Source: Elusimicrobia bacterium RIFOXYA12_FULL_51_18 (GTDB taxonomy: Bacteria > Elusimicrobiota > Elusimicrobia > Elusimicrobiales > UBA9959). Taken from it: DNA of 64,000 nt. The translations under genes and the position numbers were made by a program. Position 1 is the first letter of the stretch. Each line of letters starts with the position of its first letter. A model generated the notes under the pieces. That model ran no database searches. It was not told the origin of the DNA and saw nothing but the letters and a program-made list of their open reading frames with translations. Location of the stretch: NCBI GenBank assembly GCA_001800245.1, contig MGVA01000043.1, positions 93,098 through 157,097 on the forward strand, given 5' to 3'. This document shows positions 1 to 56,211 of the stretch, in pieces.

Positions 1-36
1 GATAATCTGGTCGTTTCAAATGCCTATGCCGCGGAG

Positions 37-744
37 ATGATTGATAAGGATCAAAGCCGAGAGGGGATTCATTTCTCTATCAGCAGAACCACGATGGGAC
101 GGATCCTGTCTGTTATTCATAAACCTATTGGATCATTGCGCGTTTTGGAAATCGGTGCGGGTGCGGGTTGTTTGGCTTCACGATTTGTCGAAAGTGGCGT
201 TGAGTATACAGGTGTCGAACCATCAAAGGAGCTTTATAGGCAGATTATCGCCGGGAAGCCTTATTTGGAGAAAAGAGTGTTGAATGGCCATATCGATGCG
301 GTTCCGTTGCCGCAAAAAAAGTATGACTTATTAGTCATGATCGATACTCTTGAGCATATCCCCAATCCGGTGGAATATTTGAGGAAGTTGAAATCATTTT
401 TATCAAATGATGGGGTTATGTATATAGAAGTGCCGAACGAGGCATTGTTGAGCCTCAAAGGAGCAATGCGGCGCGTTTTGAATGTGTATTCGGGTTATAT
501 AACGCATCCGGGGCATGTGAATTTGTTTAATGCAAATACGCTGCATATGGCGTTATCCGGAGCCGGATACAGGGCAATTTCTGTTTCTCAATATAGCGTG
601 TTTGGCGATTATAACCGGATGCAAGTCGCCTTAAAGGGACGATGGGCTGCGGGATGTAAAATTGCCTGCACAATTTTCAAATATTCAAAGATAGATTTAC
701 TTATGCAGCAAGGGAATCTCAGCGCATGCGCAAAGTGCGGCTGA
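37..744 (+). CDS. class I SAM-dependent methyltransferase
   Basis: 235-aa ORF with SAM-binding motif I 'VLEIGAGAGCLA' and post-I 'DLLVMIDTLEHI', typical of Methyltransf_11/23-type enzymes. Confidence 0.7.
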   Translation: MIDKDQSREGIHFSISRTTMGRILSVIHKPIGSLRVLEIGAGAGCLASRFVESGVEYTGVEPSKELYRQIIAGKPYLEKRVLNGHIDAVPLPQKKYDLLVMIDTLEHIPNPVEYLRKLKSFLSNDGVMYIEVPNEALLSLKGAMRRVLNVYSGYITHPGHVNLFNANTLHMALSGAGYRAISVSQYSVFGDYNRMQVALKGRWAAGCKIACTIFKYSKIDLLMQQGNLSACAKCG

Positions 745-781
745 CCCCTTAAATTGTTAGGAGTGAAAGCGTTTAAAATAA

Positions 782-2302
782 ATGAAAAGAATCAGGTCAT
801 TCTTCAAAGACCACTGGGGGATGCTACTGATTGTCTATTGCATTTCCTGCCTGTTTAACTCGATTGTTAATTTTAAGACGATCATGAACCCGTATTATAT
901 TTACGGAGATATTTCATTTTATGCTGTTTTTCATCGTTTGTGTTCGGCGCAGCCTCTTTTTACCAATGATTTATTCCTGTCCGTTTTTGACATGAAGCAG
1001 GTCTTGTTGCGCGTAGACATCCCAATCGTAAAATGGCTGCTGCCGGTCACTATTTTATTAATGAAAGCGATGTCTTTATCGCAGGTTCTTGTTGTCCAAT
1101 CAATTATTTTTTGTGTAATAGCGTCTGTTTTAATGTACTTGATCGGTGCCAGTATGGGTTCTAAAAAAGAAGCCCTCTTGTTGGTTGTTCTTTTTCTAAT
1201 CTATACCGGTTCCATGGATTCGTTCTATGGAGGTGCGGCGCGAGGATCCGGTATGGCGATAACTTGCGCTGGGTTCTATTGTTTGCACAGAAAATTTACC
1301 TATGCGATAATTATGCTGATACCGGTCGCCTGGTTATCATATCCGCCGATATTACCGCTGGTCGCAGCCTTTGCCGGTTACTCTATAATCCATAGAGGGG
1401 GCAAGATCAGGGATAAAATGGTATTAATTGGCCTGACGGGGCTGATGTTGTGCTTTTTTGCAGTCTGGTTGTTCCAAGTTGAAAAACAGGCCCTCTGGAA
1501 ACTCAGTTCTTTAATGGAATGGAAAAACAGGGCTGGGATCTTCGACCTAAGGAATAACTTATTGTTGGTATATGTTTTAAATATTAATGAACACTCGGCC
1601 CTGTATGTGATATTTACCGGAATAATGATCGGCGCCAGTTTAGTTTATGCTTTGCATGCGCGGAGGAATTCCGGTTTTGTCGGCAGGGAATTTATTTTAA
1701 TTTCCGCCGGTGTTTTTATAGCGGTGTTTTTTGTTAAAAAAGAAGTCGCCTCTCGAGAGGTTATTTTCTCGATCCCTGTTTTTTTAACAATTGCCTTTTG
1801 GCGCATCTTGCTGTCGTTTAAGAGCGGCGTGGTGCGATACGGGGCTTGTATGATTTTCGCTTTATTATTTTTACTGGTGCCTCCTAATGACGGGGATATT
1901 GATTTCAGCCGTTACAGGGAACTTTTTACGGATTTATCACATACGCCTTCCGATTTGTTGATTGCCGGTCCTCTGAAATCTTTAGATTTTGTCCCTTTTT
2001 TTACGCGTCAATCGGTTTTTTTTGCGCCTTTTTGGGAAGAGGCTAAGCATTGTGTCCCCTCGATGCAAACTGAACTAAAAAATAGAAAGCAAGAATTGGA
2101 AAAGATATTATATTCGAAAAATGAGCAAGAGATTGTGCGGTTTGCGGGACGCAACCACATTACGCATTTTATTGTTGATGATTATCTATACGCCGGGTAT
2201 AACTCTAACGGCGGGAGGCCGTTCGCATTGCAGGAGTTGGCGCATCGGCATGGGGTGGCGTATGGCAATGGCCTTTATCTTATTAATGTAAACCAGTTCT
2301 GA
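782..2302 (+). CDS. polytopic membrane protein of unknown function, many TM helices plus a soluble C-terminal domain of about 130 aa (GT-C/polymerase-like by topology only)
   Basis: 506-aa ORF with long hydrophobic segments throughout; starts 38 nt after the methyltransferase; no motif I can name. Confidence 0.5.
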   Translation: MKRIRSFFKDHWGMLLIVYCISCLFNSIVNFKTIMNPYYIYGDISFYAVFHRLCSAQPLFTNDLFLSVFDMKQVLLRVDIPIVKWLLPVTILLMKAMSLSQVLVVQSIIFCVIASVLMYLIGASMGSKKEALLLVVLFLIYTGSMDSFYGGAARGSGMAITCAGFYCLHRKFTYAIIMLIPVAWLSYPPILPLVAAFAGYSIIHRGGKIRDKMVLIGLTGLMLCFFAVWLFQVEKQALWKLSSLMEWKNRAGIFDLRNNLLLVYVLNINEHSALYVIFTGIMIGASLVYALHARRNSGFVGREFILISAGVFIAVFFVKKEVASREVIFSIPVFLTIAFWRILLSFKSGVVRYGACMIFALLFLLVPPNDGDIDFSRYRELFTDLSHTPSDLLIAGPLKSLDFVPFFTRQSVFFAPFWEEAKHCVPSMQTELKNRKQELEKILYSKNEQEIVRFAGRNHITHFIVDDYLYAGYNSNGGRPFALQELAHRHGVAYGNGLYLINVNQF

Positions 2303-2392
2303 GGTTTTTATTGATTCCCGGACGCATCCCTCGGGGAATATTAAAAGAACCTGTCTCCTTCGTTAACCAGACAATCGTGATCGGAATAAACT

Positions 2393-3841
2393 TCATCCCT
2401 CTCGCCTAAGCTTTGCAACGATAAAATGCGGATAGAGACGCAGGAAGCGTCCGGTGTGGAAATCTCCGCTAGATCTGCTGAGTACTCTGGCCGCCACACG
2501 GAGGAAGATATCTCCGACCGGCAGCGAGAACAGTCCGGGCCTGTGCGCTAGAAAGCGCCTGAGACTGCGCGGCAGGCGCGGCAACAGCGTTAGCAGTGAG
2601 AAATATGCCGCCTGCCTTCGCCTGGGGAGCTGCGAGTAGCCTGCCGGGCGCATCAGGCCGCCAGGTACGTTATGTTTCCCCGGCCGGGCCGTGGCCAGCG
2701 GGGTGTTTGGATATATGCGCAGAAAAAAAATTTCGTTGTGGTCGGGAGTGTTTTCCGCGTAGAAAGAGGCTAAGGCTGAAAGTTCTTCCTCGCTTTCATC
2801 GGGCAGGTCAAGGATGTTGTCACAGGTGACGTATACTCCCTCCGATCGCAGCGCGTTTATGGCCGCCCCTATGTCGGCGTTCGCCGCGCGCCTGCCCAGC
2901 AGCGTGCGGCGCCGGGCCTCGTCGAAGCGCTGTACTCCAAGCTGAACTTTCATGCACCCGGCGGCAGCCAGCGCAGGCGCCGCTTCAGCCAGGTGGTGGT
3001 CCGGGAACACGTAGCAGGAAAAAGGCAGGCCTATTTTTTTTCGGTAAAGAGGCAGGAATGTGTTTAGCCAGGCATAGTCCGAGTTAAATACTTCGTCGGT
3101 GAAATGTATAAAGTGTGGGTTCCTCTTACTTAGTGTTTCCACAAGTTCGGCCAGCATGTTCTCCGGGGAGCGGCGGCGCAACGGAGGTGTTTTGGAGGCT
3201 GCGTAGAGTTCCCTGTAAACGCTGTTGCAGCAATAGGTGCAGGAGTGTGGGCAGCCGCGTGAAGAGGATGCGAGGTATCCTTCGGAAAAACAGGGGTACG
3301 CTCCGGCGAATAGGTTCTTGTCTGGGAACGGCAGGGAGTTTATATCAGCCGGCGGCGCCGCAGGAGGGCCTTTTAATATCTCACCGTCTTTTTTTCCCCA
3401 GATGCCGGCAGGCAGGCTGCCGCCTGATGCGATGACTTTGGCCAGGGCCGGTAGAGCCAGGTCTCCTTCTCCGAGACATACGAAATCCACGCAGTCCTCC
3501 GCCAGGACGGTTTCAGGCGTTGAGGAAGCGTGTATTCCGCCAAAAACTATTTTAGCCCCCGTTCTTTTTTTTATTTCTCGTGCCATCGAAATGGCCCAGG
3601 GGAAGGTGTCGGTGAACACCGAAAAAGCCACTATGTCCGGCCTGTGCTTTTCAGTCAGGCGCAGAGCCTGTTCCCGAAAACTCAAGAATCCGGCCAGTAT
3701 TGTGGAACGCCAGAATCCGGCCTCGTCGAAAAGGCAGGGGTCTATAACCAGAGCGGTCTCAAAACCTGCCGCTTTGAGCGAAGCTGAAAGGTATTCGATC
3801 CCGAGACTTTCATAACCGTTATGGAGAAAGAGTATCTTCAT
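2393..3841 (-). CDS. B12-binding-domain radical SAM protein
   Basis: N-terminal Rossmann-like 'MKILFLHNGYESLGIEYLSASLKAAGF' (B12-binding type) and radical-SAM cluster 'CPHSCTYCC'. Start chosen at MKILF because its ATG overlaps the upstream stop (ATGA); the ORF track begins 18 codons earlier. Confidence 0.8.
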   Translation of the reverse strand: MKILFLHNGYESLGIEYLSASLKAAGFETALVIDPCLFDEAGFWRSTILAGFLSFREQALRLTEKHRPDIVAFSVFTDTFPWAISMAREIKKRTGAKIVFGGIHASSTPETVLAEDCVDFVCLGEGDLALPALAKVIASGGSLPAGIWGKKDGEILKGPPAAPPADINSLPFPDKNLFAGAYPCFSEGYLASSSRGCPHSCTYCCNSVYRELYAASKTPPLRRRSPENMLAELVETLSKRNPHFIHFTDEVFNSDYAWLNTFLPLYRKKIGLPFSCYVFPDHHLAEAAPALAAAGCMKVQLGVQRFDEARRRTLLGRRAANADIGAAINALRSEGVYVTCDNILDLPDESEEELSALASFYAENTPDHNEIFFLRIYPNTPLATARPGKHNVPGGLMRPAGYSQLPRRRQAAYFSLLTLLPRLPRSLRRFLAHRPGLFSLPVGDIFLRVAARVLSRSSGDFHTGRFLRLYPHFIVAKLRREG

Positions 3842-5172
3842 CCCGCCGGTTTCCCGGCCGCTGAGGCGGCGGCTCTGTCGGCGTCCAGAAGGCATTCTTC
3901 CATGTCGTAGTATGAATGAGCCCCGCTTCTGCCGCAGAGTTCCAGGTTTGCGTAGCGGCCCAAAGCCCCGGTCACCGTGTTAAGAGATTTTTCATAGCCC
4001 AGATACAGGAGAGGGTAGGCGAAAGGCAGCCTTTCCACTTTAAAGTCCAAAAGCTCAGATCCCTTGAATATTTTTATGGCCGAAAGGGCGTTGAACGTTG
4101 CCGCCGCTATGTCCGCATCCGGCTTGCGCCAGGTTTTGTCGTCCTCTTGGCAGAATATTTCCAGGGTAACCGGAAAGAAACCTTCTGGAACCAGGCCGCG
4201 GCTCCAGTTGAGCAGCTCGGATGCCCTGGAAAAGGGGACATCCGGGTCCTGGAAATAGACCCAGTGGTCCTTCAAGGGCGTGCGATTTTTGAGAGCCAGG
4301 AACACTATTATCAGGGAGCGGTAGCGCAGGTCCCGAGCCGCGCAGGCCAATTCGGGGTTGTCCCGGATAAGCGCGGAAAATTCTTTTAACGGGATGGTGG
4401 AAATAAGCTGCCTGAACTTTAAGGTCCCGCGGCATCCGTTTTGTTCAAATTCGAGAGCGGTCAGGCGGCCGCCCTCGGCCGTAAGTTTTAAAGGTATTGC
4501 GCCGGTAAGTATTTCTCCCCGGTCAGTGAGTTTTTTTCGCAGGGCGCCTGTAAGGCTTCCTATGCCGTCCTTCGGGTATAGGAAATGCCCGGCATTTTCC
4601 TTGGCGCCAGAGATGGGCAGGAAGATGTCGAAGAAAAGTTTTTTTAAGTCCAGGCTGCCTATGCGCCTCTCGGCCCAGATGGAGGAGATCTCTTCCGTAG
4701 GAAGGCCCCAGGCTTTTAATGAGTAATCCTTGAAATAGGCGTCATGTATTCGGGGCCCGAAGTTGCGGCCCAGCCAATCCTTGAGCGAGGCCGATTTCTC
4801 GTCCGCTTTCCGGGTGCCGTGCGTTTTGAAGCGCAGGGTTGGGAGGGCGTAAAAGATCCCATTCAGCAGCGTGGGGGGATATTGAAGGAACCGGCCGCGG
4901 GTGTAGATGCTGCTTTTCCTTTTATGGTATAACGTTCGTCCGGCCCCCAGGAGTTTTTCCACACGGCCTTTCACGTCGGCATCCTTGAAATAAAGCCTGT
5001 GGCCGCCCAGGTCGAATTTGAAATTCTTATGGGAAACGGTGGCCGCCAGGCCGCCTTCGCGCTCCGCTTTCTCCAGGATGAAAATTTTTTTCCCGCCTTC
5101 TTTAAGCCGGTCGGCGGCCGCCAGGCCGCTTAATCCCGCGCCGAGAATGGCGATGTCCGTGTTGATTTCCAT
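3838..5172 (-). CDS. FAD/NAD(P)-binding oxidoreductase (amine-oxidase / protoporphyrinogen-oxidase-like fold)
   Basis: 444-aa ORF with N-terminal dinucleotide-binding motif 'DIAILGAGLSGLAAADRL...ILEK'; translationally coupled to the B12-rSAM gene. Confidence 0.75.
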   Translation of the reverse strand: MEINTDIAILGAGLSGLAAADRLKEGGKKIFILEKAEREGGLAATVSHKNFKFDLGGHRLYFKDADVKGRVEKLLGAGRTLYHKRKSSIYTRGRFLQYPPTLLNGIFYALPTLRFKTHGTRKADEKSASLKDWLGRNFGPRIHDAYFKDYSLKAWGLPTEEISSIWAERRIGSLDLKKLFFDIFLPISGAKENAGHFLYPKDGIGSLTGALRKKLTDRGEILTGAIPLKLTAEGGRLTALEFEQNGCRGTLKFRQLISTIPLKEFSALIRDNPELACAARDLRYRSLIIVFLALKNRTPLKDHWVYFQDPDVPFSRASELLNWSRGLVPEGFFPVTLEIFCQEDDKTWRKPDADIAAATFNALSAIKIFKGSELLDFKVERLPFAYPLLYLGYEKSLNTVTGALGRYANLELCGRSGAHSYYDMEECLLDADRAAASAAGKPAG

Positions 5173-5182
5173 TGTAAGGTCC

Positions 5183-5296
5183 GGCTTATGACCATGCCGT
5201 AACTGCCCTGTGGGAGTGCCGCAGCAAGAGCTGTGCTCATCAAGCGGCCCGGCGCTATACGCACCAAACGGTCAAGCGCTATACGTTCAGACGGCC
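5183..5296 (-). repeat. dispersed repeat core (copy A)
   Basis: Reverse complement aligns with 19839-19930 from GGCCGTCTGA to CATAGGTC, with an internal 'CGTATAGCGC' duplication. Confidence 0.75.
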
Positions 5297-5452
5297 TTTT
5301 TATTCTACATAATTTGACCGCAGGGGAAATCGTTCCCACGTTCCCGTTCCCATGTTCCCGCGTTTGCCTGTGGCTCTATCCGGCTGAAGGTGTGCCGCCG
5401 CGGATTTAATGAGAAAAGCGCGAAAAAAGTCCCATAATGCTAAAATTATGTC

Positions 5453-6352
5453 ATGCCGGATATACCGGTCTGGAATAAATGTGATAATCTCTGCGTGATG
5501 TGCGCCAACGAACCCGCGTTCGTACGCGCTCCATCAGGCCGGTATTTGCTGAAATCACAAATAAAAAGGTTTGAAAGTTATCTTTCAGGTTTTAAGGCGG
5601 CTTACGCCAAAAACGCGGATAACTGCGCGGCGCTTAATCTCACCGGCGGCGAACCTGCGCTCAACCCCGATTTTTTAAAGCTGCTGACCTATTTTAGGAA
5701 AAGAACTCCCGGAAGGGAGCTGACGCTTTTGTCCAATGGCCGTTGTTTCTCCGCCGCCGTCTTTGCCGCCGCCGCGCTTAAGGCCGGGAAAGCCCCGTTC
5801 GCCGTGGTTGTAGCCCTGCACGGCTCCACCGCCGCCAGGCATGACTCCATAAGTAGAGTTCCGGGGAGTTTCAGCGCTACGCTTGCCGGTCTGCGCAATA
5901 TTTGCATCCATAAAAGTCCGGGGCAGACGCTGGAGATACGCCTGGTCCTCCACCGGCGGAACGTAAAAGACTTTGAAAATATTCTTCTGCTCCTGTTGCG
6001 GGAGTTTTCCGGTTTTAAAGGATGGCGGGCGGTAGCGCTGCATTACGAACTGGAAGGCCGAGCGCTGAAAAATTTAAAAGCGCTGGCGCTTCGGCTTAAA
6101 ACTTCAGCCGGAGCCGTCAACTCCTGCGCGGCGCTTATACGCCGGTTCAAAGAGTTCCGGCTCTACCATTTTCCGCTTTGTCTTTTGAAGAAAGAGCTGC
6201 GGCCCCTGGCCTGGATTACTTTGCCTACGGAAGACCGGTTTTATGCCCGGAAGTGCGGCGGCTGCGTGCTGCGCGCGAGTTGTGTGGGGTTGATGGCACG
6301 CTACAGCATCCGTTTCGGCTCAGGAGAGCTCAGGCCGCTCAAAACAATATAA
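5453..6352 (+). CDS. radical SAM protein with C-terminal Cys cluster (SPASM-like?)
   Basis: 'CDNLCVMC' (CxxxCxxC) at residues 10-17, 'LNLTGGEPALNP' SAM-binding glycine motif, C-terminal 'CGGCVLRASC'. Confidence 0.7.
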   Translation: MPDIPVWNKCDNLCVMCANEPAFVRAPSGRYLLKSQIKRFESYLSGFKAAYAKNADNCAALNLTGGEPALNPDFLKLLTYFRKRTPGRELTLLSNGRCFSAAVFAAAALKAGKAPFAVVVALHGSTAARHDSISRVPGSFSATLAGLRNICIHKSPGQTLEIRLVLHRRNVKDFENILLLLLREFSGFKGWRAVALHYELEGRALKNLKALALRLKTSAGAVNSCAALIRRFKEFRLYHFPLCLLKKELRPLAWITLPTEDRFYARKCGGCVLRASCVGLMARYSIRFGSGELRPLKTI

Positions 6353-6534
6353 TGGCTCCGCTTTTAAACATCGGATCGGTTGAGCGCCTCTGTCAGGGTG
6401 GATGCGGCGGGCACGGGTTTTGTTGCGGCAGGTCTTAAGGGACGTGATCTGTAAGGCGGACGCTCTATGGCCGGCAGGAGCGGGAAAATGTGACGGAGCC
6501 TACTATAGTATTGTATTATTATCCTTAAATTAGC

Positions 6535-24488: not shown

Positions 24489-25832
24489 ATGCCGGTCTCT
24501 ATTATCAAGTTTGTAAACCTTAACACTAACCCCGTGAGATTCAAGATTTTCATCAGCCTTCTTTTCGCGTTTGCCGCCGGTTCTTTTGAACCGAAAGCCG
24601 CTTACTCAGGAGAGAATGAGGCCCCGGCGGTTACCCCCGCCGATAAAGAGAAACTACTGCATACGGCCGAACAGCTGGCCGCTCAGATAGGCGAGGATCC
24701 GCAGGTCAAGGATCTTTTCGACAGGTCTTTCTTTAAACAGCTCTCCCGTGAAAAATTAGAAGATCTCCTGCGTCAGAGCTACCGGACTAACGGCAAGGTC
24801 TCGGCGGTGAAGCTGGCTTACGCGGATTCCTCTTGCTCCGCCCGGTTCACTTTCGAGACCGAAAAAGATTTAGTGCTGCCGGCAGCTTTCACGGTCAACA
24901 GAGAGACGGGGCGGATTACGGCCCTGTTCTTTCAATCCGCATACCCTAAGAACTTGTCTCTGGAGGCGGTTAGGAGGCGGTTAGCGGCCCTGCCCGGCCG
25001 GACCGGCTTCCTTGCGATCAAGTTGAACGCTCCCAGACGCACGCTTGAGGCGCTTAACGAAGACGCCTATTTCGCCATCGGTTCCGCTTCCAAGCTTTAC
25101 CTGCTGGGGACCGTGGTGGAAGAAGGCTTCTCCTGGAAAAAAATATTCACCCTGAGGGAAGAGTCAAAGTCTCTGCCAACCGGCCGTCTGCGGAACTGGC
25201 CTGACGGTTCGTCCATGACCTTGCATACCCTGGCGGCGGCCATGATTTCCGAGAGCGACAACACGGCCTCCGACATACTGGCGGACGGCCTGGGGCGTGA
25301 AACTATTGAAGGCGCATTGCCCGCGCTGGGGCATTCCAACCCCGAACTTTTGAAGCCTTTCCTGAAGACTGCCGAGATGTTCCGCCTCAAAAGCGATACG
25401 GAGGAAAGCGTTAAATATCTGAACGCCCCATTGAATGAAAAATATAGAATGCTCTACGCTCTGGCGCGCAGGCCGCTTAATGCGGCCGAGCTCAAGCCCG
25501 CGCCGTTCGGAGTGGATAAGATAGAATGGCCGGCATCGCCCGCGGACCTTTGCCGACTGATGGAGTATTTTTACAGGAAAGGGGATAAAACCGCCAGGGC
25601 TATTATGGCCATCGAACCCGGTTTGGATATCCCGAGAAATAAGTTCCTTTACGCCGGCTACAAGGGCGGCGCCGAGGCGGGTGTTCTGAACATGACCTGG
25701 CTTCTGAAGACTTCCGGCGCGGACTGGTACTGCCTAACAGGTTCCTGGAACAACGACAGCGATAAGGAGAACCTGGCGGAAAATAAATTTTTTGAGCTGA
25801 TGCGGACGGCTATCAATGTGATCGGGCAATAA
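24489..25832 (+). CDS. class-A-beta-lactamase-like serine hydrolase with extra N-terminal domain
   Basis: 'GSASK' (SxxK), 'SESDN' (SDN), 'YKGGAEAG' (KTG-like) in canonical order; signal/anchor at the N-terminus. Confidence 0.6.
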   Translation: MPVSIIKFVNLNTNPVRFKIFISLLFAFAAGSFEPKAAYSGENEAPAVTPADKEKLLHTAEQLAAQIGEDPQVKDLFDRSFFKQLSREKLEDLLRQSYRTNGKVSAVKLAYADSSCSARFTFETEKDLVLPAAFTVNRETGRITALFFQSAYPKNLSLEAVRRRLAALPGRTGFLAIKLNAPRRTLEALNEDAYFAIGSASKLYLLGTVVEEGFSWKKIFTLREESKSLPTGRLRNWPDGSSMTLHTLAAAMISESDNTASDILADGLGRETIEGALPALGHSNPELLKPFLKTAEMFRLKSDTEESVKYLNAPLNEKYRMLYALARRPLNAAELKPAPFGVDKIEWPASPADLCRLMEYFYRKGDKTARAIMAIEPGLDIPRNKFLYAGYKGGAEAGVLNMTWLLKTSGADWYCLTGSWNNDSDKENLAENKFFELMRTAINVIGQ

Positions 25833-25961
25833 AGGCGGCGGGTCACCGCATAGCGATGGCGATGCCCGGAGTAAGCCATTTCAGGCATTGACCGTCATAT
25901 TGTTATAATAGTGAATTACCAATGAGCTTTGTGAAAAACAGCATATTTAAAGGAACGAACT

Positions 25962-27443
25962 ATGCCGGCTAAAAAAGCGGAACTTCAGGCGCCTGAGACG
26001 GCGGCGATATCGGAAGATAATCTTAAGGCTTTATTTAAAAAGACTTTCAGCGAGGAGATCGCGGACTTTACACCGCTCAAGGGCGACGCTTCCGCCCGGC
26101 GGCTGTTCAGGATAAAAAGCGCCGGGCGTTCCGTTATCGGCGCCGTGGGGCCGGATAGGCTGGAAAATACGGCCTTTGTGGAGTTCTCAAGGCATTTTAA
26201 GAAGGAAGGGCTGCCGGTGCCGGCGATCTACTCCGCGGACCTTTCAAAGAACATCTATCTGGAAGAGGACCTGGGCGACATGACCCTGTTCCAGTTCATG
26301 CTCAAGGAGCGCACCGGCCCCGATATCCCGGAATCCGTGCTGGCGGCCTATAAAAAGACCATCGACTGGCTGCCCGCTTTCCAGATGAGAGCCGGCAAGA
26401 CCCTGGATTATAAGTACTGCCATCCCCGCGACAGTTTCGATCGGCAGTCTATAATGTGGGACCTGAACTATTTCAAGTATTATTTTCTGCGCCTCTCTAA
26501 GATCCCGTTCAGCGAGCAGAAGCTGGAGGACGATTTCAACGCCCTTACCGCCTTTCTGCTGGAAGCCGACACCTCTTATTTCATTTACCGGGATTTTCAG
26601 TCCAGAAATATCATGCTCCGCGATGGTGAGCCCTCTTTTATAGATTACCAGGGAGGTCGTAAAGGGGCCTTACAGTATGACGTCGCCTCCCTGCTTTATG
26701 ACGCGAAAGCAGACTTGCCGCCGGAGACGCGGCGCGAGCTGCTGGCGCATTACCTGAAGGGCGCGGGCGCATCCGGCGTGGATAAAGCCGTTTTTATGAA
26801 GTATTTCCACGCTTACGTTTATATAAGGATAATGCAGGCGCTGGGCGCCTACGGCTTGCGCGGCTTCTATGAGGGCAAGGCGCATTTCCTTCAGAGCGTG
26901 CCTTACGCCGTCAGGAACATCGAATGGCTGCTCAGGCGGGGCGACGTGCCGGTGAAGATGCCGGAACTGACCAGGATATTTAAAAGCATGGCCGCGTCCT
27001 CTTATCTGCGTCAGTTCGGTTCCACCAAACTGGGGCTGACGGCGCGCTTGACAAGTTTTTCCTACCGCAACGGCCTACCGTCCGACGATAAAGGCCACGG
27101 CGGCGGTTTTATTTTCGACTGCCGCTTTCTCCCCAATCCCGGCCGGGAGGAAAAGTATGCCCCCTTGACCGGCAGGGACGCCGAAGTTATTTCATATCTG
27201 GCCGCCGCGCCGCAGGTCGGAGCGTTTTTGGAGAACGTGTTCAGCATCGTGGATCCGGCGGTGGAGAATTATATGTCGCGGAACTTTACGGACCTGATGA
27301 TTTCGTTCGGCTGCACCGGCGGCAGGCACCGCTCGGTTTACTGCGCCGAGCAGCTTAAAAAACATCTCGCTGAAAAATACAAAATGAGAGTGGAGCTCCA
27401 GCACCGGGAGCTTGAACCCCTCGCCAAAGAAACCCGCTTATGA
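25962..27443 (+). CDS. fusion protein: AmgK-like (APH-fold) sugar kinase + RapZ C-terminal domain
   Basis: N-terminal 'FIYRDFQSRNIML...FIDYQGG...YDVASLLYDA'; C-terminal 'FIFDCRFLPNPGRE...GCTGGRHRSVYCAEQL' matches the RapZ C-terminal domain. Confidence 0.7.
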   Translation: MPAKKAELQAPETAAISEDNLKALFKKTFSEEIADFTPLKGDASARRLFRIKSAGRSVIGAVGPDRLENTAFVEFSRHFKKEGLPVPAIYSADLSKNIYLEEDLGDMTLFQFMLKERTGPDIPESVLAAYKKTIDWLPAFQMRAGKTLDYKYCHPRDSFDRQSIMWDLNYFKYYFLRLSKIPFSEQKLEDDFNALTAFLLEADTSYFIYRDFQSRNIMLRDGEPSFIDYQGGRKGALQYDVASLLYDAKADLPPETRRELLAHYLKGAGASGVDKAVFMKYFHAYVYIRIMQALGAYGLRGFYEGKAHFLQSVPYAVRNIEWLLRRGDVPVKMPELTRIFKSMAASSYLRQFGSTKLGLTARLTSFSYRNGLPSDDKGHGGGFIFDCRFLPNPGREEKYAPLTGRDAEVISYLAAAPQVGAFLENVFSIVDPAVENYMSRNFTDLMISFGCTGGRHRSVYCAEQLKKHLAEKYKMRVELQHRELEPLAKETRL

Positions 27444-28180
27444 AAGCTATGATCCTGGCCGCCGGCCTCGGCAAACGGCTGCGGCCCCTGACCGACGCTA
27501 CGCCAAAAGCGCTGGCGGATATAGGCGGCGTGACCTTGCTTGAAGTCATCCTGCAGCGGCTTGCAAAAGCCGGCGTCACGGAAGCCATAATAAACACCCA
27601 TCATCTGGCCGAAAAATTAACCGATTTCCTGGAGAACAAACAGCGCTTAGGGCTGAAAGTCGAAATTTCCCGAGAAACGTTTTTCCCGTTGGAAACCGGC
27701 GGCGGCTTAAAAAAGGCCGCCTGGTTCTTCGGCGATGGGAAACCGTTCTTCCTGCATAATTGCGATATTTTCACCGAGCTGGACCTTTCGGCGCTGTACC
27801 AAGCCCATCTGAACGGCTGCGCCCTGGCCACTTTGGCGGTAAAGGAGCGTCCTTCAAAAAGGCAGTTGCTGTTCGCCCCGGAACTTGATCTTAAAGGCCG
27901 GTTCCTGGCGGATGGGAATATGACGGAGTGGTGCGGCGAACCAGTAAAGGACCCGCTGAAACTCGCGTTCAGCGGAGTGCAGGTCGTTTCCCCGGAAATT
28001 TTCCCGCTCATGACGGAGACCGGCGTGTTCTCTATAATGGATGTTTATCTGCGGTTGGCCGGGGCCGGTTCTAAAATAAAAGGTTTCCGCATGGACGAAT
28101 CCTACTGGCAGGACATAGGTAGCCTTGCGAAGCTGGAAGTCCTGCGCAAGTATGTCGCGGAAAAAGGAATAAGGATTTAG
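27440..28180 (+). CDS. sugar-1-phosphate nucleotidyltransferase (MurU-like)
   Basis: 'MKAMILAAGLGKRLRPLTD'; ATGA overlap with the upstream kinase fusion. Confidence 0.7.
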   Translation: MKAMILAAGLGKRLRPLTDATPKALADIGGVTLLEVILQRLAKAGVTEAIINTHHLAEKLTDFLENKQRLGLKVEISRETFFPLETGGGLKKAAWFFGDGKPFFLHNCDIFTELDLSALYQAHLNGCALATLAVKERPSKRQLLFAPELDLKGRFLADGNMTEWCGEPVKDPLKLAFSGVQVVSPEIFPLMTETGVFSIMDVYLRLAGAGSKIKGFRMDESYWQDIGSLAKLEVLRKYVAEKGIRI

Positions 28181-28288
28181 TTTGAGTGGAGGACCCCTAC
28201 CCGGTTGCGCTTTTGGGTATCTTTTGTGACAAAAGGGTCAGGTCATGAAATTTATTAAAATACAATGGGATGGTTTTTGAGAGGTAAT

Positions 28289-28672
28289 ATGGTTAAACAA
28301 TTGTTTATTTTGATCTTGATCGGGATTTCGATATGCCTTTCAGGCGGCACTTATGGTTTAGGGCCTTTCCTGCACGCTGAAGCAGTGTTGCTGGTGTTCG
28401 GCGGAACTTTTCTGCTTACGTGGGCGGCTTATCCGCTCAAAGAGATTCTACATCCATCCGGCCCTGCCCCGCTCGTATATGCCGGCGGATCTGCTATAGG
28501 CCTGGGGGTACTGGTCACACTGCTGGATTTGATGGTTGAGTTTTGGGTCGGCCCTGGAACCGCAGAACTTACGCGTCGTTTCGCGGCAGCGCTGGCCGGT
28601 CTGTTCTACGGGTTCCTGCTCTCAAAAGTCATCATAGCTCCTATTGCCGCGCGCCTTGCCGTAAGGGAGTAG
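28289..28672 (+). CDS. small membrane protein with MotA/ExbB-like C-terminal helices
   Basis: 'LAGLFYGFLLSKVIIAPIAARL' resembles the last TM pair of MotA/TolQ/ExbB channels; no MotB/ExbD partner nearby. Confidence 0.4.
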   Translation: MVKQLFILILIGISICLSGGTYGLGPFLHAEAVLLVFGGTFLLTWAAYPLKEILHPSGPAPLVYAGGSAIGLGVLVTLLDLMVEFWVGPGTAELTRRFAAALAGLFYGFLLSKVIIAPIAARLAVRE

Positions 28673-53494: not shown

Positions 53495-53565
53495 AGCGGG
53501 CGATGGGAATCGAACCCACATCTCAACCTTGGCAAGGTCGTGTACTACCACTGTACGACGCCCGC
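53495..53565 (-). tRNA. tRNA-Gly (anticodon GCC)
   Basis: Minus strand GCGGGCG...CTTGCCAAG...GGTTCGATTCCCAT-CGCCCGC-T; cloverleaf arms present, CCA not encoded. Confidence 0.9.
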
Positions 53566-53724: not shown

Positions 53725-54969
53725 ATGAAGCTCACGTCCGACAGACTGAAAAACCATCCGCTGGCCCTTTTTTCCGATTTTAGGAGGCTTTTTGCCGGTC
53801 GTCTGATTTCAGCCGTGGGGGATAAGTTTTTCTCCATTGCCATCGCCTGGTGGGTTATAAGCAAAAGCGGTGGAGACTCCAAGTTCCAGCTGGGATTGGT
53901 GATGGCCGTGACCGTCATTCCGGTGGTTCTGTTCGGGCCCGTGCTGGGCACTTTAGTGGACCGTTCCGATAAACGCCGGGTAATGCTGCTGGCCGATGCC
54001 GCTCGGGCCTTATGCGTATTCATCCTGGCCTGGCTGCTTTACGCGGACAGGCTGAGTCTGCCCGCGCTCTATGCGCTGTGTTTTCTTATTTCGGCTTTCG
54101 GCCCGCTTTTCGAATCCGCAGTTTCAAGCTCCATAGTCCGCCTGACCTCCCCGGAAAAGCTGGCCGGCGCCACCGCCACCGACGCCTCCGTCATGCAGCT
54201 TTCGAGCGTGGCCGGCTCGGCCCTCGGCAGCGTGCTGATGGCCGTGGTGGGTGTTGCCGGCGCTTTCTTGTTCAACGCGCTCTCATACCTGGCGTCTTTT
54301 TTTGCCGTTTTACTCATCCGTACCGATCTGCGGCCGGCCGGGCGCGACGCCCCTTCGGCCTACATGACGGAGCTTCGCGACGGCCTGAACTATGTGTTAA
54401 AGAGCCCTCCGCTCCTGGCGCTGCTGTCCGTCTTCGCCGCATTTAATTTTTTTATCGGCCCGTTGCTGATCCTCATTCCCATGATCGTGCAGTTTACGCT
54501 GAAGGAATCGGTAACCTGGCTGGCGGTATTCGAGACTTTTTTCGCTCTGGGATCCGCGGTAACTTCGGTCGCGGCCAGTTTTAGGAAAACTTATGTCAGC
54601 GTATATGGTACATTTTTTAGGTCGGTGCTGTTCCTGGGGCTTTCTTTCGGCGGGCTTTATTTTACCTCGGATAAATACGTGGTCTGCGCCCTGCTTTTCG
54701 CCGCCGGCGCGGCTCTAGGAACCGGGAACACCGCCGCGCTTACCCTTTTTCAGCACGCCGTGCCCGAGGAGATGAAGGGGCGGTTCTTCGCCGTTCTGAC
54801 CACCATCTGTTACGCCGTTCTGCCGCTGACCTTTATGATCAACGGGATCCTGGCAGAGAAATTTTCGGTGGGATTCTGCATCGCGTTCAATTCCGCGGCC
54901 GTGCTTGCCATCTCATGCGTAATACTTCTCATTCCGAGGCTTGAGGTCCGGTTCGGCGCGGGAAATTAA
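53725..54969 (+). CDS. MFS transporter
   Basis: 12 predicted TM helices; 'GTLVDRSDKRRVM' loop 2-3 motif. Confidence 0.8.
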   Translation: MKLTSDRLKNHPLALFSDFRRLFAGRLISAVGDKFFSIAIAWWVISKSGGDSKFQLGLVMAVTVIPVVLFGPVLGTLVDRSDKRRVMLLADAARALCVFILAWLLYADRLSLPALYALCFLISAFGPLFESAVSSSIVRLTSPEKLAGATATDASVMQLSSVAGSALGSVLMAVVGVAGAFLFNALSYLASFFAVLLIRTDLRPAGRDAPSAYMTELRDGLNYVLKSPPLLALLSVFAAFNFFIGPLLILIPMIVQFTLKESVTWLAVFETFFALGSAVTSVAASFRKTYVSVYGTFFRSVLFLGLSFGGLYFTSDKYVVCALLFAAGAALGTGNTAALTLFQHAVPEEMKGRFFAVLTTICYAVLPLTFMINGILAEKFSVGFCIAFNSAAVLAISCVILLIPRLEVRFGAGN

Positions 54970-55002
54970 ACGGTTTGATCTTACATGTTTTTGGCCTGGG
55001 GG

Positions 55003-56211
55003 TCAGATCTTTATCACGCGCGTCTGGGCTATGATGTCATGCCACGTGCGTCCTTCTTTTTCCCATAATGCCCAGGCGTAACCGAGCAGGCCCGTGAGGG
55101 ACACGAGCGAGAAAAATGCCCGGAGGAAAGCTTTGTCCGCCGCCGTATTTACTCCGGTGGCCGCGTCCACCACTTTTAACTTTAGGATCATTTTGCCGGG
55201 AGTGGCGCCAAAACGCCAGACCATGACCGCGCCGTAAAGCGCCCATAGGAGCATGGTAACCGGGAGGCTCTTGCCGTGTTCTTTGGCCTCGCCGAGCCCG
55301 GTCTTGAACCCGATATCAAGCTTTTTGGTCCGTTCCAATTTGCCGCCGGGCTGAGCAGGCCTGGTGATTTTAACCCCGTCCTTCCGGTTGTAGGAGATAG
55401 TTTCGCCGTTATCGCCTTTAATGTTCAAACCGTCGGGACCGATGTGGACCTTCTCGGCCCGGATTTCCTGGCGGCCATATTTATCCTTTCTTTCAATCTT
55501 CGCATCCGGCCCGCAGGCGCGCAGACCGAGCGCGTTGAGAACCACCAGAAAAACAGTTACATCCACTAAAAGAGCGCCCAGTCTGCGCCAGAAACCGGCC
55601 CGGACTCCGGTTGCCGCAACTACCGGTCCGGGAACTGTTCCGGTTGCCTGGCTTTCAGCGGCGCCGGCGGAGGCTAGCTGCTCGGGCCGGCCTATGGGCG
55701 TCTCCCGCAGTACGCGGTAAACCTTGATCTTTTCCGGCACGTTCTTGAACTGGCGGTAGCCGATCTCGCTGGACGGAACCTCTTTTTTGTTCATGGCCAG
55801 GTACACGGCTTCCGTAAAGAACACCTGGCCGGCTTCGGCTATGCCGCCTATGCGCGCGGTGATATTAACGGCGTCCCCGTAAATATCATTATCCGCCAGG
55901 GTCACTTCGCCCGAATTGATGGCGATGCGGATCTCTATTTTATCGTCGGTGCCCCTGTCGGTGTTGTGCGCTTTGAGCACGTTCTGTATTTCCACGCCGC
56001 AAAGGACGGCGTCGGTAGGGCTGTCGAAGGTGACCAGGAACGCGTCGCCTATTGTCTTGACCAGTTTGCCTTCGAATTTTTGAATAACCGGCAGGACCAG
56101 CTCTTCATGTTTCTTGATCATTTCCAGCACCTGGGTCCGCGAAAAGCTGGCGGTTTTGGATGTGAACCCTTTTATATCGGTAAGCATTATGGTCAAATGT
56201 TTTGTCTGCAT
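55003..56211 (-). CDS. class III adenylate/guanylate cyclase fused to a C-terminal RDD membrane domain
   Basis: 'IMLTDIKGFTS', 'KTIGDAFLVTF', 'YGDAVNITARI'; C-terminal 'AGFWRRLGALLVDVTVFLVV' RDD-type region. Confidence 0.8.
   Translation of the reverse strand: MQTKHLTIMLTDIKGFTSKTASFSRTQVLEMIKKHEELVLPVIQKFEGKLVKTIGDAFLVTFDSPTDAVLCGVEIQNVLKAHNTDRGTDDKIEIRIAINSGEVTLADNDIYGDAVNITARIGGIAEAGQVFFTEAVYLAMNKKEVPSSEIGYRQFKNVPEKIKVYRVLRETPIGRPEQLASAGAAESQATGTVPGPVVAATGVRAGFWRRLGALLVDVTVFLVVLNALGLRACGPDAKIERKDKYGRQEIRAEKVHIGPDGLNIKGDNGETISYNRKDGVKITRPAQPGGKLERTKKLDIGFKTGLGEAKEHGKSLPVTMLLWALYGAVMVWRFGATPGKMILKLKVVDAATGVNTAADKAFLRAFFSLVSLTGLLGYAWALWEKEGRTWHDIIAQTRVIKI

What the first reader, a model, noticed from the sequence alone, without database searches (positions are those of the whole stretch)
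25962..28180. AmgK-like anomeric sugar kinase fused to the RapZ C-terminal domain, coupled to a MurU-like uridylyltransferase
The first 340 or so residues carry APH-fold kinase motifs of the AmgK type ('YRDFQSRNIML', 'IDYQGG', 'YDVASLLYD'). The last 150 or so residues match the RapZ C-terminal domain almost motif-for-motif ('FDCRFLPNPGRE', 'GCTGGRHRSVYCAEQL'). In established work RapZ pairs a P-loop N-domain with this C-domain. The C-domain binds the sRNA GlmZ and senses GlcN6P to control glmS. AmgK/MurU form the MurNAc salvage route to UDP-MurNAc. Here the RapZ P-loop half is replaced by a sugar kinase, and the gene overlaps (ATGA) a MurU-like gene. This suggests an amino-sugar-sensing or RNA-binding module attached to cell-wall sugar recycling. 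I cannot tell from memory whether this architecture has been characterised.
Basis: partly seen in the sequence, partly recalled or inferred. Interest (0 to 1): 0.6.

Follow-up and report, generated by a model that had tools for sequence, protein, structure and literature searches.

The report
Sugar kinase fused to RapZ sensor domain
A cell-wall-sugar recycling kinase in this Elusimicrobia genome carries the sugar-phosphate-binding half of the regulator RapZ; the fusion occurs in at least 600 species across several phyla, nobody appears to have studied it, and it may link recycling to sensing of cell-wall precursors.

Summary
ORF1 (25962-27443, 493 aa) is an AmgK-like APH-fold kinase joined in one frame to a complete RapZ C-terminal domain (Pfam PF22740, E 8.9e-36; predicted fold matches E. 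coli RapZ-CTD at TM 0.93, rmsd 1.5 A). It overlaps by ATGA a MurU-like nucleotidyltransferase (27440-28180; best solved match is P. putida MurU, E 1.4e-32).

The fusion is a real, ancient family. It occurs in at least 600 species genomes (Elusimicrobia, Acidobacteriota, Bacteroidota, Calditrichia, Ignavibacteria, Lentisphaeria and others). The MurU-like gene lies directly downstream in 74 of 80 loci examined. Several lineages fuse all three domains into one protein.

RapZ_C is the most conserved part of the protein. It keeps the anion pocket (C-T-G-G-x-H-R-S) and the dimerisation strand (F-D). It lacks RapZ's P-loop half and its basic RNA-binding tail, and the pocket is remodelled (H190G, W191R, N236R, V183C).

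My reading is a two-step salvage route to a UDP-amino sugar, probably UDP-MurNAc. I infer that the kinase carries a phosphosugar-binding, dimerising regulatory domain rather than an RNA adaptor. I found no published description, and databases often mislabel these proteins "RNase adapter RapZ". Function is untested. This is a new variant of a known kind, of moderate to high interest.

The parts
25833..25961 (+). Upstream intergenic region with a ribosome-binding site (AAAGGAA) 6-7 nt before the ATG. No Rfam element is present.
   Evidence: Sequence. The Rfam gathering scan found only a tRNA elsewhere in the window. The consensus scan called no convincing sigma-70 promoter here.
25962..27443 (+). 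ORF1, 493 aa: AmgK-like kinase fused to a RapZ C-terminal domain.
   Evidence: AF2 model has pLDDT 86.9.
26013..26936 (+). APH-fold (AmgK-like) kinase domain, aa 18-325.
   Evidence: Pfam APH covers aa 36-267. The AmgK NCBIfam models cover aa 19-324. PDB entry 3csv matches at E 3e-23 with the single sequence and 1.3e-30 with a profile. By Foldseek the best match is 3csv.
26586..26657 (+). Kinase catalytic loop YRDFQSRN (D211, N216) and metal-binding IDYQGG (D228).
   Evidence: Translation. These positions are at least 90% conserved across 130 representatives and align with the 3csv motifs hRDfhaqN and iDfqda.
26937..27035 (+). Variable helical linker, aa 326-358.
   Evidence: Highest entropy in the protein (3.34 bits) with no column at or above 90% conservation. 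Helices at aa 334-354 in the model. It aligns weakly with the RapZ interdomain segment, residues 126-157.
27036..27416 (+). RapZ C-terminal domain, aa 359-485.
   Evidence: PF22740 at E 8.9e-36. The domain-only AF2 model (pLDDT 90.2) matches E. coli RapZ-CTD 5o5s with TMt 0.93, rmsd 1.5 A and 36% identity. It has the lowest entropy in the protein.
27108..27146 (+). FIFDCRFLPNPGR. It contains the equivalent of the RapZ dimerisation strand (F385 and D386 correspond to F181 and D182), R388 (R184), the family-specific C387 (V183), and G394-R395 replacing H190-W191 of the pocket.
   Evidence: Translation, alignment to RapZ, and family frequencies. The roles of F181, D182 and H190 come from PMC5737377 and PMC9841335.
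27309..27335 (+). GCTGGRHRS anion-binding loop. C451, T452, G453, H456 and R457 correspond to RapZ C247, T248, G249, H252 and R253. The loop fits the C-X5-R-S pattern and lies between a beta-strand and a helix.
   Evidence: Translation. These residues are kept in 129-130 of 130 representatives. The model places a strand at aa 444-451 and a helix at aa 457-473. Pocket residues are from PMC9841335.
27440..27443 (+). ATGA start/stop overlap coupling ORF1 and ORF2.
   Evidence: The same 4-nt overlap occurs in most related loci.
27440..28180 (+). ORF2, 246 aa: MurU-like sugar-1-phosphate nucleotidyltransferase.
   Evidence: Pfam NTP_transferase at E 7.6e-20. NCBIfam MurU NF045761 scores 145 bits against a cutoff of 250. 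P. putida MurU 4y7t matches at E 1.4e-32 and P. aeruginosa MurU 8hhd at 3e-25, both over the full length.

Best explanation
ORF1 and ORF2 form a self-contained, translationally coupled two-enzyme salvage module. The N-terminal APH-fold domain of ORF1 phosphorylates an N-acetyl amino sugar at the anomeric carbon, most probably MurNAc and possibly GlcNAc, as AmgK does. ORF2 converts the sugar-1-phosphate to the UDP-sugar, as MurU does, feeding peptidoglycan synthesis without MurA/MurB.

The C-terminal RapZ-type domain is not an RNase adaptor. It keeps RapZ's anion pocket and its dimerisation strand. It therefore most likely acts as a dimerising module that binds a phosphorylated cell-wall sugar, such as GlcN6P, MurNAc-phosphate or a UDP-sugar. 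Through that binding it would tune or couple the kinase, and the attached or adjacent uridylyltransferase, to the precursor pool.

Shown here: the domain identities, the conservation, the operon coupling and the distribution. Inferred: the substrate identity, ligand binding, and the regulatory role.
For: Domain identity comes from sequence and fold.

The kinase catalytic motifs are intact and at least 90% conserved.

The ORF1-ORF2 pair is the only conserved neighbourhood in 80 genomes from at least 8 lineages. A MurU-like gene lies directly downstream in 74 of 80 loci, mostly with a 4-nt overlap.

Seven independent 50%-identity clusters fuse APH, RapZ_C and NTP_transferase into one polypeptide.

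RapZ_C is the most conserved segment: entropy 1.84 against 2.24 for the kinase, with 34 of 127 columns at or above 90% conservation.
- Pocket residues C, T, G, H, R and S are kept in 129-130 of 130 representatives.
- Dimer-strand residues F and D are kept in 128-129 of 130.

In E. coli the isolated RapZ-CTD binds GlcN6P and dimerises on its own (PMC7073468; PMC5737377). The pocket is reported to be conserved in RapZ homologues generally, whereas the RNA-binding tail is restricted to Enterobacteriaceae.

Two Terriglobia genomes (L034, L077) have cleanly lost RapZ_C while keeping the kinase-MurU overlap. Proteobacterial AmgK lacks the domain as well. Both facts fit an accessory or regulatory role rather than an obligatory catalytic one.
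Against: No biochemical data exist for any family member that I could find.

The AmgK and MurU equivalog cutoffs are not reached, so the sugar could differ.

H190, which is essential in E. coli RapZ, is replaced by an invariant Gly. Two new arginines and a cysteine line the pocket, so the ligand is probably not identical to that of RapZ.

Nothing here tests allostery. The interdomain geometry of the model is only moderately confident (pTM 0.69) and I could not inspect its coordinates.

An invariant Cys in a C-X5-R-S loop is also compatible with catalysis.
Confidence: 0.5

Rival explanations
1. RapZ_C is a third catalytic domain. Its C-X5-R-S loop, with Cys at the end of a strand and Arg at the start of a helix, acts on a sugar phosphate. 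One possibility is a MurNAc-6-phosphate phosphatase replacing MupP. The protein would then carry out two consecutive steps: MurNAc-6P to MurNAc to MurNAc-1P.
For: The GC-TGGxH-RS loop is invariant, and its strand-loop-helix context is seen in the model. A second family-specific invariant cysteine, C387, is present. In E. coli RapZ the C247S variant is inactive. The authors report density suggesting a chemically transformed GlcN6P in the pocket and raise a catalytic role (PMC9841335). No mupP-like HAD gene lies next to the operon in any of the 80 loci.
Against: Foldseek found no significant similarity to any phosphatase fold; the only such hit was DUSP26 at E 2.0 and TM 0.24. No enzymatic activity has been shown for any RapZ-CTD. 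The domain has been lost in L034 and L077 without loss of the operon. Absence of mupP nearby says nothing about the rest of each genome.
Confidence: 0.15
2. RapZ_C serves only as a structural dimerisation or scaffold module that holds the kinase and the uridylyltransferase together for channelling. No ligand sensing is involved.
For: The dimer-strand residues F385 and D386 are conserved. In E. coli F181A and D182A abolish CTD dimerisation (PMC5737377). In the triple fusions RapZ_C sits between the two enzymes.
Against: A pure scaffold would not need an invariant anion pocket (C, T, G, H, R and S in 129-130 of 130) or conserved new arginines beside it.
Confidence: 0.15
3. The domain acts as in E. 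coli RapZ. It binds a small RNA and presents it to a ribonuclease, or otherwise riboregulates amino-sugar synthesis.
For: The E. coli RapZ-CTD contacts GlmZ mainly through this domain and this pocket (PMC9841335). K170, R184 and R196 equivalents stay mostly basic.
Against: The basic C-terminal tail is absent: the protein ends ...HRELEPLAKETRL, and the mean is 2.2 K/R in the last 15 residues across the family. Four of seven RNA-path basic residues are lost (K194, R211, R238, K251). The P-loop NTD needed for RNase E presentation is absent. GlmY and GlmZ are confined to Enterobacteriaceae, and no Rfam RNA lies near the locus.
Confidence: 0.05
4. The module salvages a different sugar, such as GlcNAc, GalNAc or another hexosamine used for LPS or exopolysaccharide, rather than MurNAc.
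For: Scores are far below the AmgK and MurU equivalog cutoffs. The second-best families for ORF2 are mannose-1-P guanylyltransferases. P. putida AmgK itself also accepts GlcNAc (the NCBIfam name is N-acetylmuramate/N-acetylglucosamine kinase).
Against: AmgK and MurU are clearly the closest characterised families for both genes. ORF2 matches MurU at 1e-32 against 5e-16 for GMPPB. The kinase/NTase gene order and coupling mirror amgK-murU.
Confidence: 0.25

Closest known systems
AmgK/MurU anabolic MurNAc recycling pathway (Pseudomonas putida and P. aeruginosa; also Caulobacter, Legionella and Tannerella forsythia)
   Same: An APH-fold anomeric kinase gene is immediately followed by a minimal NTP-transferase gene. 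AmgK and MurU are the best-matching characterised families for both ORFs.
   Different: Proteobacterial AmgK is about 38-39 kDa with no extra domain (PMC11957156). Here the kinase carries a 135-residue RapZ C-domain. Both enzymes fall well below the equivalog scores. The lineages concerned (Elusimicrobia, Acidobacteriota and others) have not been studied for this pathway (PMC13046382). I could not establish whether T. forsythia AmgK carries the domain.
RapZ (YhbJ) of E. coli, and YvcJ of Bacillus
   Same: The C-terminal domain is homologous: 36% identity, TM 0.93. It has the same anion-binding loop C-T-G-G-x-H-R-S, the same dimer strand F-D, and K170 and R184 equivalents. It is also linked to amino-sugar and cell-wall precursor metabolism.
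   Different: The P-loop/Walker A N-domain is replaced by a non-homologous APH kinase. There is no basic C-terminal RNA-binding tail. The pocket is changed (H190G, W191R, N236R, V183C). It is not found in an rpoN-ptsN or yvcJ-glmR-whiA context.
PDB 3csv, putative aminoglycoside phosphotransferase from Silicibacter sp. TM1040
   Same: It is the closest solved structure to the kinase domain (E 1.3e-30 with a profile; TMt 0.77) and shares the GDAS-R-R and hRDfxxxN motifs.
   Different: It is a single-domain protein of 333 aa with no RapZ_C, and its function has not been determined experimentally.
6-phosphofructokinase, fructose-6-phosphate-binding subdomain
   Different: Foldseek found only insignificant PFK and PFKFB hits (E 0.45-1.1). 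[quoted passage not shown]

Membership tests
AmgK (N-acetylmuramate/N-acetylglucosamine anomeric kinase) | APH/protein-kinase-like fold with the catalytic HxDxxxxN-type loop and a metal-binding Asp | tested here: met
   Pfam APH E 2.5e-12. YRDFQSRN and IDYQGG are conserved at or above 90%. Foldseek best match is 3csv.
AmgK (N-acetylmuramate/N-acetylglucosamine anomeric kinase) | Reaches the NCBIfam equivalog score (NF045759 cutoff 550 bits; NF045698 cutoff 500 bits) | tested here: not met
   74.2 and 61.2 bits. It is a homologue, not a demonstrated equivalog.
AmgK (N-acetylmuramate/N-acetylglucosamine anomeric kinase) | Encoded next to, and co-transcribed with, a MurU-type uridylyltransferase | tested here: met
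   ATGA overlap in the window. A MurU-like gene lies downstream in 74 of 80 related loci. Triple fusions exist.
AmgK (N-acetylmuramate/N-acetylglucosamine anomeric kinase) | ATP-dependent phosphorylation of MurNAc or GlcNAc at C1 | not testable with these tools
   Requires an enzyme assay.
RapZ / YvcJ (RNase adapter, PRK05416, NF003828) | N-terminal P-loop (Walker A/B) kinase-like domain | tested here: not met
   The RapZ model matches only at positions 156-278 of 278 (109 bits against a cutoff of 244). The N-terminal part is an APH fold.
RapZ / YvcJ (RNase adapter, PRK05416, NF003828) | C-terminal PFK-like domain (PF22740) | tested here: met
   E 8.9e-36 over the full profile. TMt 0.93 and rmsd 1.5 A to 5o5s.
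RapZ / YvcJ (RNase adapter, PRK05416, NF003828) | Sulphate/malonate (putative GlcN6P) pocket: H190, T248, G249, H252, R253, with C247 nearby | tested here: inconclusive
   C, T, G, H and R are kept in 129-130 of 130 representatives. H190 is replaced by Gly in 125 of 130, and new arginines appear at the W191 and N236 positions.
RapZ / YvcJ (RNase adapter, PRK05416, NF003828) | CTD dimerisation strand (F181, D182) | tested here: met
   F385 is kept in 128 of 130 and D386 in 129 of 130. Dimerisation itself was not tested.
RapZ / YvcJ (RNase adapter, PRK05416, NF003828) | Basic C-terminal tail and basic surface path for sRNA binding (enterobacterial RapZ) | tested here: not met
   No basic tail. 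K194, R211, R238 and K251 equivalents are basic in only 0-24% of the family.
MurU (MurNAc-alpha-1-phosphate uridylyltransferase) | Minimal single-domain sugar-1-P nucleotidyltransferase homologous to P. putida MurU over its full length | tested here: met
   4y7t at E 1.4e-32, residues 1-243 against 1-223. 8hhd at 3e-25.
MurU (MurNAc-alpha-1-phosphate uridylyltransferase) | Reaches the NCBIfam equivalog score (NF045761 cutoff 250 bits) | tested here: not met
   145.2 bits.
Cys-based phosphatases (C-X5-R-S/T P-loop) | C-X5-R-(S/T) loop between a beta-strand and an alpha-helix | tested here: met
   C451-TGGRH-R457-S458, with a strand at aa 444-451 and a helix at aa 457-473.
Cys-based phosphatases (C-X5-R-S/T P-loop) | PTP, LMW-PTP or rhodanese-type fold | tested here: not met

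The most novel reading that the evidence does not exclude
The RapZ C-domain is an ancient amino-sugar-phosphate module, either a sensor or an enzyme, whose natural partner is a kinase. In Elusimicrobia, Acidobacteriota, Bacteroidota and related phyla it is wired directly into peptidoglycan-sugar salvage. There it would either gate the AmgK/MurU shortcut according to the cell-wall precursor pool, or supply the missing MurNAc-6P phosphatase step. E. coli RapZ's RNA-adaptor role would then be a late enterobacterial specialisation of this module.
Probability: 0.25. Interest if true: 0.75.

Novelty: new variant of a known kind. Interest (0 to 1): 0.55.

Why it matters
The primordial function and true ligand of the RapZ/YvcJ C-domain remain open questions. 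The E. coli work itself speculates that metabolite binding, not RNA binding, is the ancestral role, and hints at chemistry in the pocket. This family offers a natural experiment:
- the same domain, more conserved than the enzyme it is attached to;
- RapZ's P-loop half and RNA-binding tail both absent;
- a direct physical link to a defined two-step pathway with easily assayed activities.

It also extends the AmgK/MurU bypass of MurA/MurB, which determines fosfomycin susceptibility, to abundant soil and gut phyla where it has not been studied. Finally, it flags a systematic misannotation ("RNase adapter RapZ") in public genomes.

Tried and rejected
1. Assembly or frameshift artefact: rejected. 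The fusion is in hundreds of clusters and in 75 of 80 genomes.

2. Wider operon or pathway context: none found. All-against-all clustering of ORFs in 80 loci shows only the kinase-RapZ_C and MurU-like genes conserved. The upstream beta-lactamase-like and enoyl-CoA hydratase genes are syntenic only in the two closest Elusimicrobia. The window holds no rapZ, glmS or yvcK/glmR.

3. Regulatory RNA upstream: none. Rfam found only a tRNA at 53495-53565. The promoter and terminator scans were not above background.

5. Whether the experimentally used T. forsythia AmgK belongs to this family: not resolved.
- The relevant papers are not held.
- Three homologue searches returned only uncultured relatives.
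- A cluster look-up returned only metagenome-assembled Bacteroidales and Chitinophagaceae.

6. Literature: no paper contains both 'AmgK' and 'RapZ'. Broader term combinations found only the standard RapZ, YvcJ and AmgK papers, none of which mentions this architecture.

Full report
OBSERVATION

The window carries two same-strand ORFs: 25962..27443 (493 aa) and 27440..28180 (246 aa). They overlap by ATGA.

Domain searches on ORF1:
- Pfam finds an APH domain at aa 36-267 (E 2.5e-12). It also finds a complete RapZ C-terminal domain, PF22740, at aa 361-485, covering profile positions 3-121 of 121 (E 8.9e-36).
- In NCBIfam the only kinase families matched are the two AmgK models (74 and 61 bits). 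The RapZ model is matched only through its C-terminal half, positions 156-278 of 278.
- Against solved structures, the N-terminal 320 residues match 3csv, an AmgK-like structural-genomics APH (E 3e-23, or 1.3e-30 with a family profile). Residues 323-485 match E. coli RapZ residues 126-280 (E 8e-19).

Structure prediction:
- An AlphaFold2 model of the whole protein (pLDDT 86.9, pTM 0.69) hits 3csv first and then RapZ by Foldseek.
- A model of the C-terminal 142 residues alone (pLDDT 90.2) superposes on the crystal structure of the RapZ C-domain, 5o5s. The fit is TM 0.93, rmsd 1.5 A and 36% identity, and nothing else is significant.

ORF2 is a single-domain NTP-transferase. Its best family is MurU (145 bits). 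Its best structures are P. putida and P. aeruginosa MurU over their full length (E 1.4e-32 and 3e-25). Mannose-1-P guanylyltransferases follow at about 1e-16.

SOURCE AND CONTEXT

The protein is identical to one annotated in 'Elusimicrobia bacterium RIFOXYA12_FULL_51_18' and occurs on 14 assembled contigs. The surrounding 64 kb is ordinary chromosome:
- guaB/guaA, an HrpB helicase and an enoyl-CoA hydratase;
- a class-A beta-lactamase-like protein;
- a HisKA_3/GerE two-component pair and an ammonium transporter;
- ribosomal proteins, DnaB, alanine racemase, Mla genes, IspDF and CysS.

There is no rapZ, glmS or yvcK/glmR. Rfam finds only one tRNA in the window. The promoter and terminator scans around the operon were not above background.

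A LARGE, OLD FAMILY

An exhaustive HMMER search of 1.84 billion cluster representatives gave 888 hits at E <= 1e-30. The best 150 representatives, each standing for a 50%-identity cluster, are almost all full-length matches of 465-500 aa, down to 37% identity.

I scanned one genome per bacterial species using only the kinase half as bait. The best 80 loci come from:
- Elusimicrobia;
- many Acidobacteriota (Terriglobia);
- Lentisphaeria, Calditrichia and KSB1;
- Ignavibacteriales;
- Bacteroidales and other Bacteroidia;
- Eremiobacteraceae.

In 75 of these 80 loci the same ORF continues into a RapZ_C domain with the GCTGGxHRS loop. Three of the other five are cut by contig ends. Two Terriglobia (L034, L077) have cleanly lost the domain: the kinase ends after about 335 homologous residues and the MurU-like gene follows with the usual overlap.

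A MurU-like gene lies immediately downstream in 74 of 80 loci, usually with a 4-nt overlap. All-against-all clustering of every ORF in the 80 loci found no other conserved neighbour. Seven independent clusters encode APH, RapZ_C and NTP_transferase as a single polypeptide of 714-816 aa. The kinase, the RapZ domain and the uridylyltransferase are thus a functional unit under long-term selection.

WHAT IS CONSERVED

Across 130 representatives, RapZ_C is the most conserved segment. Its mean column entropy is 1.84 bits, against 2.24 for the kinase and 3.34 for the linker. Thirty-four of its 127 columns are at least 90% conserved.

I mapped this onto the E. coli work (PMC9841335; PMC5737377; PMC7073468).

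Kept:
- The anion (sulphate/malonate, putative GlcN6P) pocket residues C247, T248, G249, H252 and R253, plus S254, are kept in 129-130 of 130.
- The dimerisation-strand residues F181 and D182 are kept in 128-129 of 130.
- R184 is invariant, and K170 stays basic in 86%.

Changed or lost:
- H190, which is essential in E. coli, is Gly in 125 of 130.
- The neighbouring W191 and N236 positions are Arg or Lys in 91% and 96%.
- V183 is an invariant Cys.
- The basic C-terminal tail that binds sRNA in E. coli is absent.
- Four of the seven basic residues along the GlmZ path (K194, R211, R238, K251) are basic in only 0-24% of the family.

The kinase catalytic loop (R210-D211-F-Q-x-R-N216) and the metal-binding D228 are at least 90% conserved, so the kinase should be active.

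MECHANISM

Shown: the architecture, the coupling, the conservation and the distribution.

Inferred:
1. ORF1's N-domain is an anomeric N-acetyl-amino-sugar kinase and ORF2 is the matching uridylyltransferase, giving a MurA/MurB-independent route to UDP-MurNAc. This rests on AmgK and MurU being the closest characterised families and on the identical gene order. Both proteins are below NCBI's equivalog cutoffs, so the sugar remains to be proven.
2. RapZ_C is a ligand-binding, dimerising accessory domain. The isolated E. coli domain binds GlcN6P and dimerises. Its pocket is reported to be conserved across RapZ homologues, whereas RNA binding is an enterobacterial addition.

In this family the pocket is intact but carries two extra arginines and loses His190. 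That suggests a related but more anionic ligand, for example a MurNAc phosphate (phosphate plus lactyl carboxylate) or a UDP-sugar. This last point is speculation.

Two facts favour an accessory or regulatory role over an indispensable catalytic one. The domain was lost in two lineages, and it is absent from the 38-39 kDa proteobacterial AmgK.

RIVALS

- Catalytic role. The loop C-T-G-G-x-H-R-S fits the C-X5-R-S/T pattern of cysteine phosphatases and sits between a strand and a helix. E. coli C247S is inactive, and the authors saw a possibly transformed GlcN6P in the pocket. A MupP-like MurNAc-6P phosphatase role is therefore conceivable. However, no phosphatase fold similarity was detected and no activity is known.
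- Pure scaffold. This role does not explain the invariant pocket.
- RNA adaptor. This role is disfavoured by the missing tail, the missing basic path, the missing P-loop domain and the absence of GlmY/Z-type RNAs.
- Different sugar. A substrate other than MurNAc cannot be excluded.

COMPARISON WITH WHAT IS KNOWN, AND NOVELTY

The protein works like AmgK/MurU but is not a demonstrated equivalog. It contains a genuine RapZ C-domain but is not a RapZ, because it has no P-loop half and no RNA tail.

Public annotation is inconsistent and often wrong. The names given include 'phosphotransferase', 'aminoglycoside/choline kinase family phosphotransferase' and 'RNase adapter RapZ'.

No paper in the searchable library mentions AmgK and RapZ together. 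The RapZ structural papers do not mention this architecture. A 2026 paper still lists the MurU pathway as observed only in a few Proteobacteria and Tannerella forsythia.

I could not determine whether T. forsythia AmgK, which is functional in E. coli, carries the domain. If it does, the kinase activity of the family is already validated while the extra domain has gone unremarked.

The domain combination is visible in precomputed Pfam annotations, so the architecture itself is not a discovery. Its biology is unexplored.

VERDICT

This is a real, well-supported finding and a new variant of a known kind. Interest is moderate to high because it offers a tractable handle on the unresolved ancestral function of the RapZ C-domain. 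It also extends the fosfomycin-relevant MurNAc shortcut to major environmental phyla.

Noticed in passing
Proteins P0010, P0016, P0031, P0294, P0354, P0447 and others: NCBI's pipeline names many APH+RapZ_C proteins 'RNase adapter RapZ' although they lack the P-loop half. IMG calls fragments of them 'RNase adaptor protein for sRNA GlmZ degradation'. This is a systematic misannotation.
   Followed up: partly
L034:7929-9778 and L077:7716-9787: Two Terriglobia genomes carry the same kinase without the RapZ_C domain, and the MurU-like gene still overlaps the kinase stop. This is a clean natural domain deletion.
   Followed up: partly
P0195, P0222, P0229, P0243, P0261, P0256, P0175; also P0269: Single polypeptides combine APH, RapZ_C and NTP_transferase (714-816 aa). 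P0269 instead has an N-terminal 3'-5' exonuclease domain before APH+RapZ_C, which may be a merged gene call.
   Followed up: partly
L081 and L082 (Bacteroidia): The fusion gene is present, but no MurU-like gene lies within the flanks held. The partner may be encoded elsewhere in these Bacteroidia.
   Followed up: no
window 24489-25832 (+): A 447-aa protein with a class-A beta-lactamase-like domain (PF13354) and a long N-terminal extension lies 129 bp upstream of the operon. It is syntenic only in the two closest Elusimicrobia (L004, L005).
   Followed up: partly
window 28265-28672 (+): A 135-aa predicted membrane protein sits directly downstream. It has only weak similarity to the C-terminal part of MotA/PomA stator proteins and no Pfam hit.
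   Followed up: no
window 1-2000 and 54001-56000: The first 2 kb has GC 0.425 against about 0.54 elsewhere. The 54-56 kb segment has a strongly negative AT skew (-0.246).
   Followed up: no
window ~1-6400: A cluster of B12-binding radical-SAM proteins, a methyltransferase and an amine oxidase-like gene. This may be a small natural-product or lipid-modification locus.
   Followed up: no
window 53495-53565 (-): A single tRNA gene, the only Rfam match in the window.
   Followed up: no
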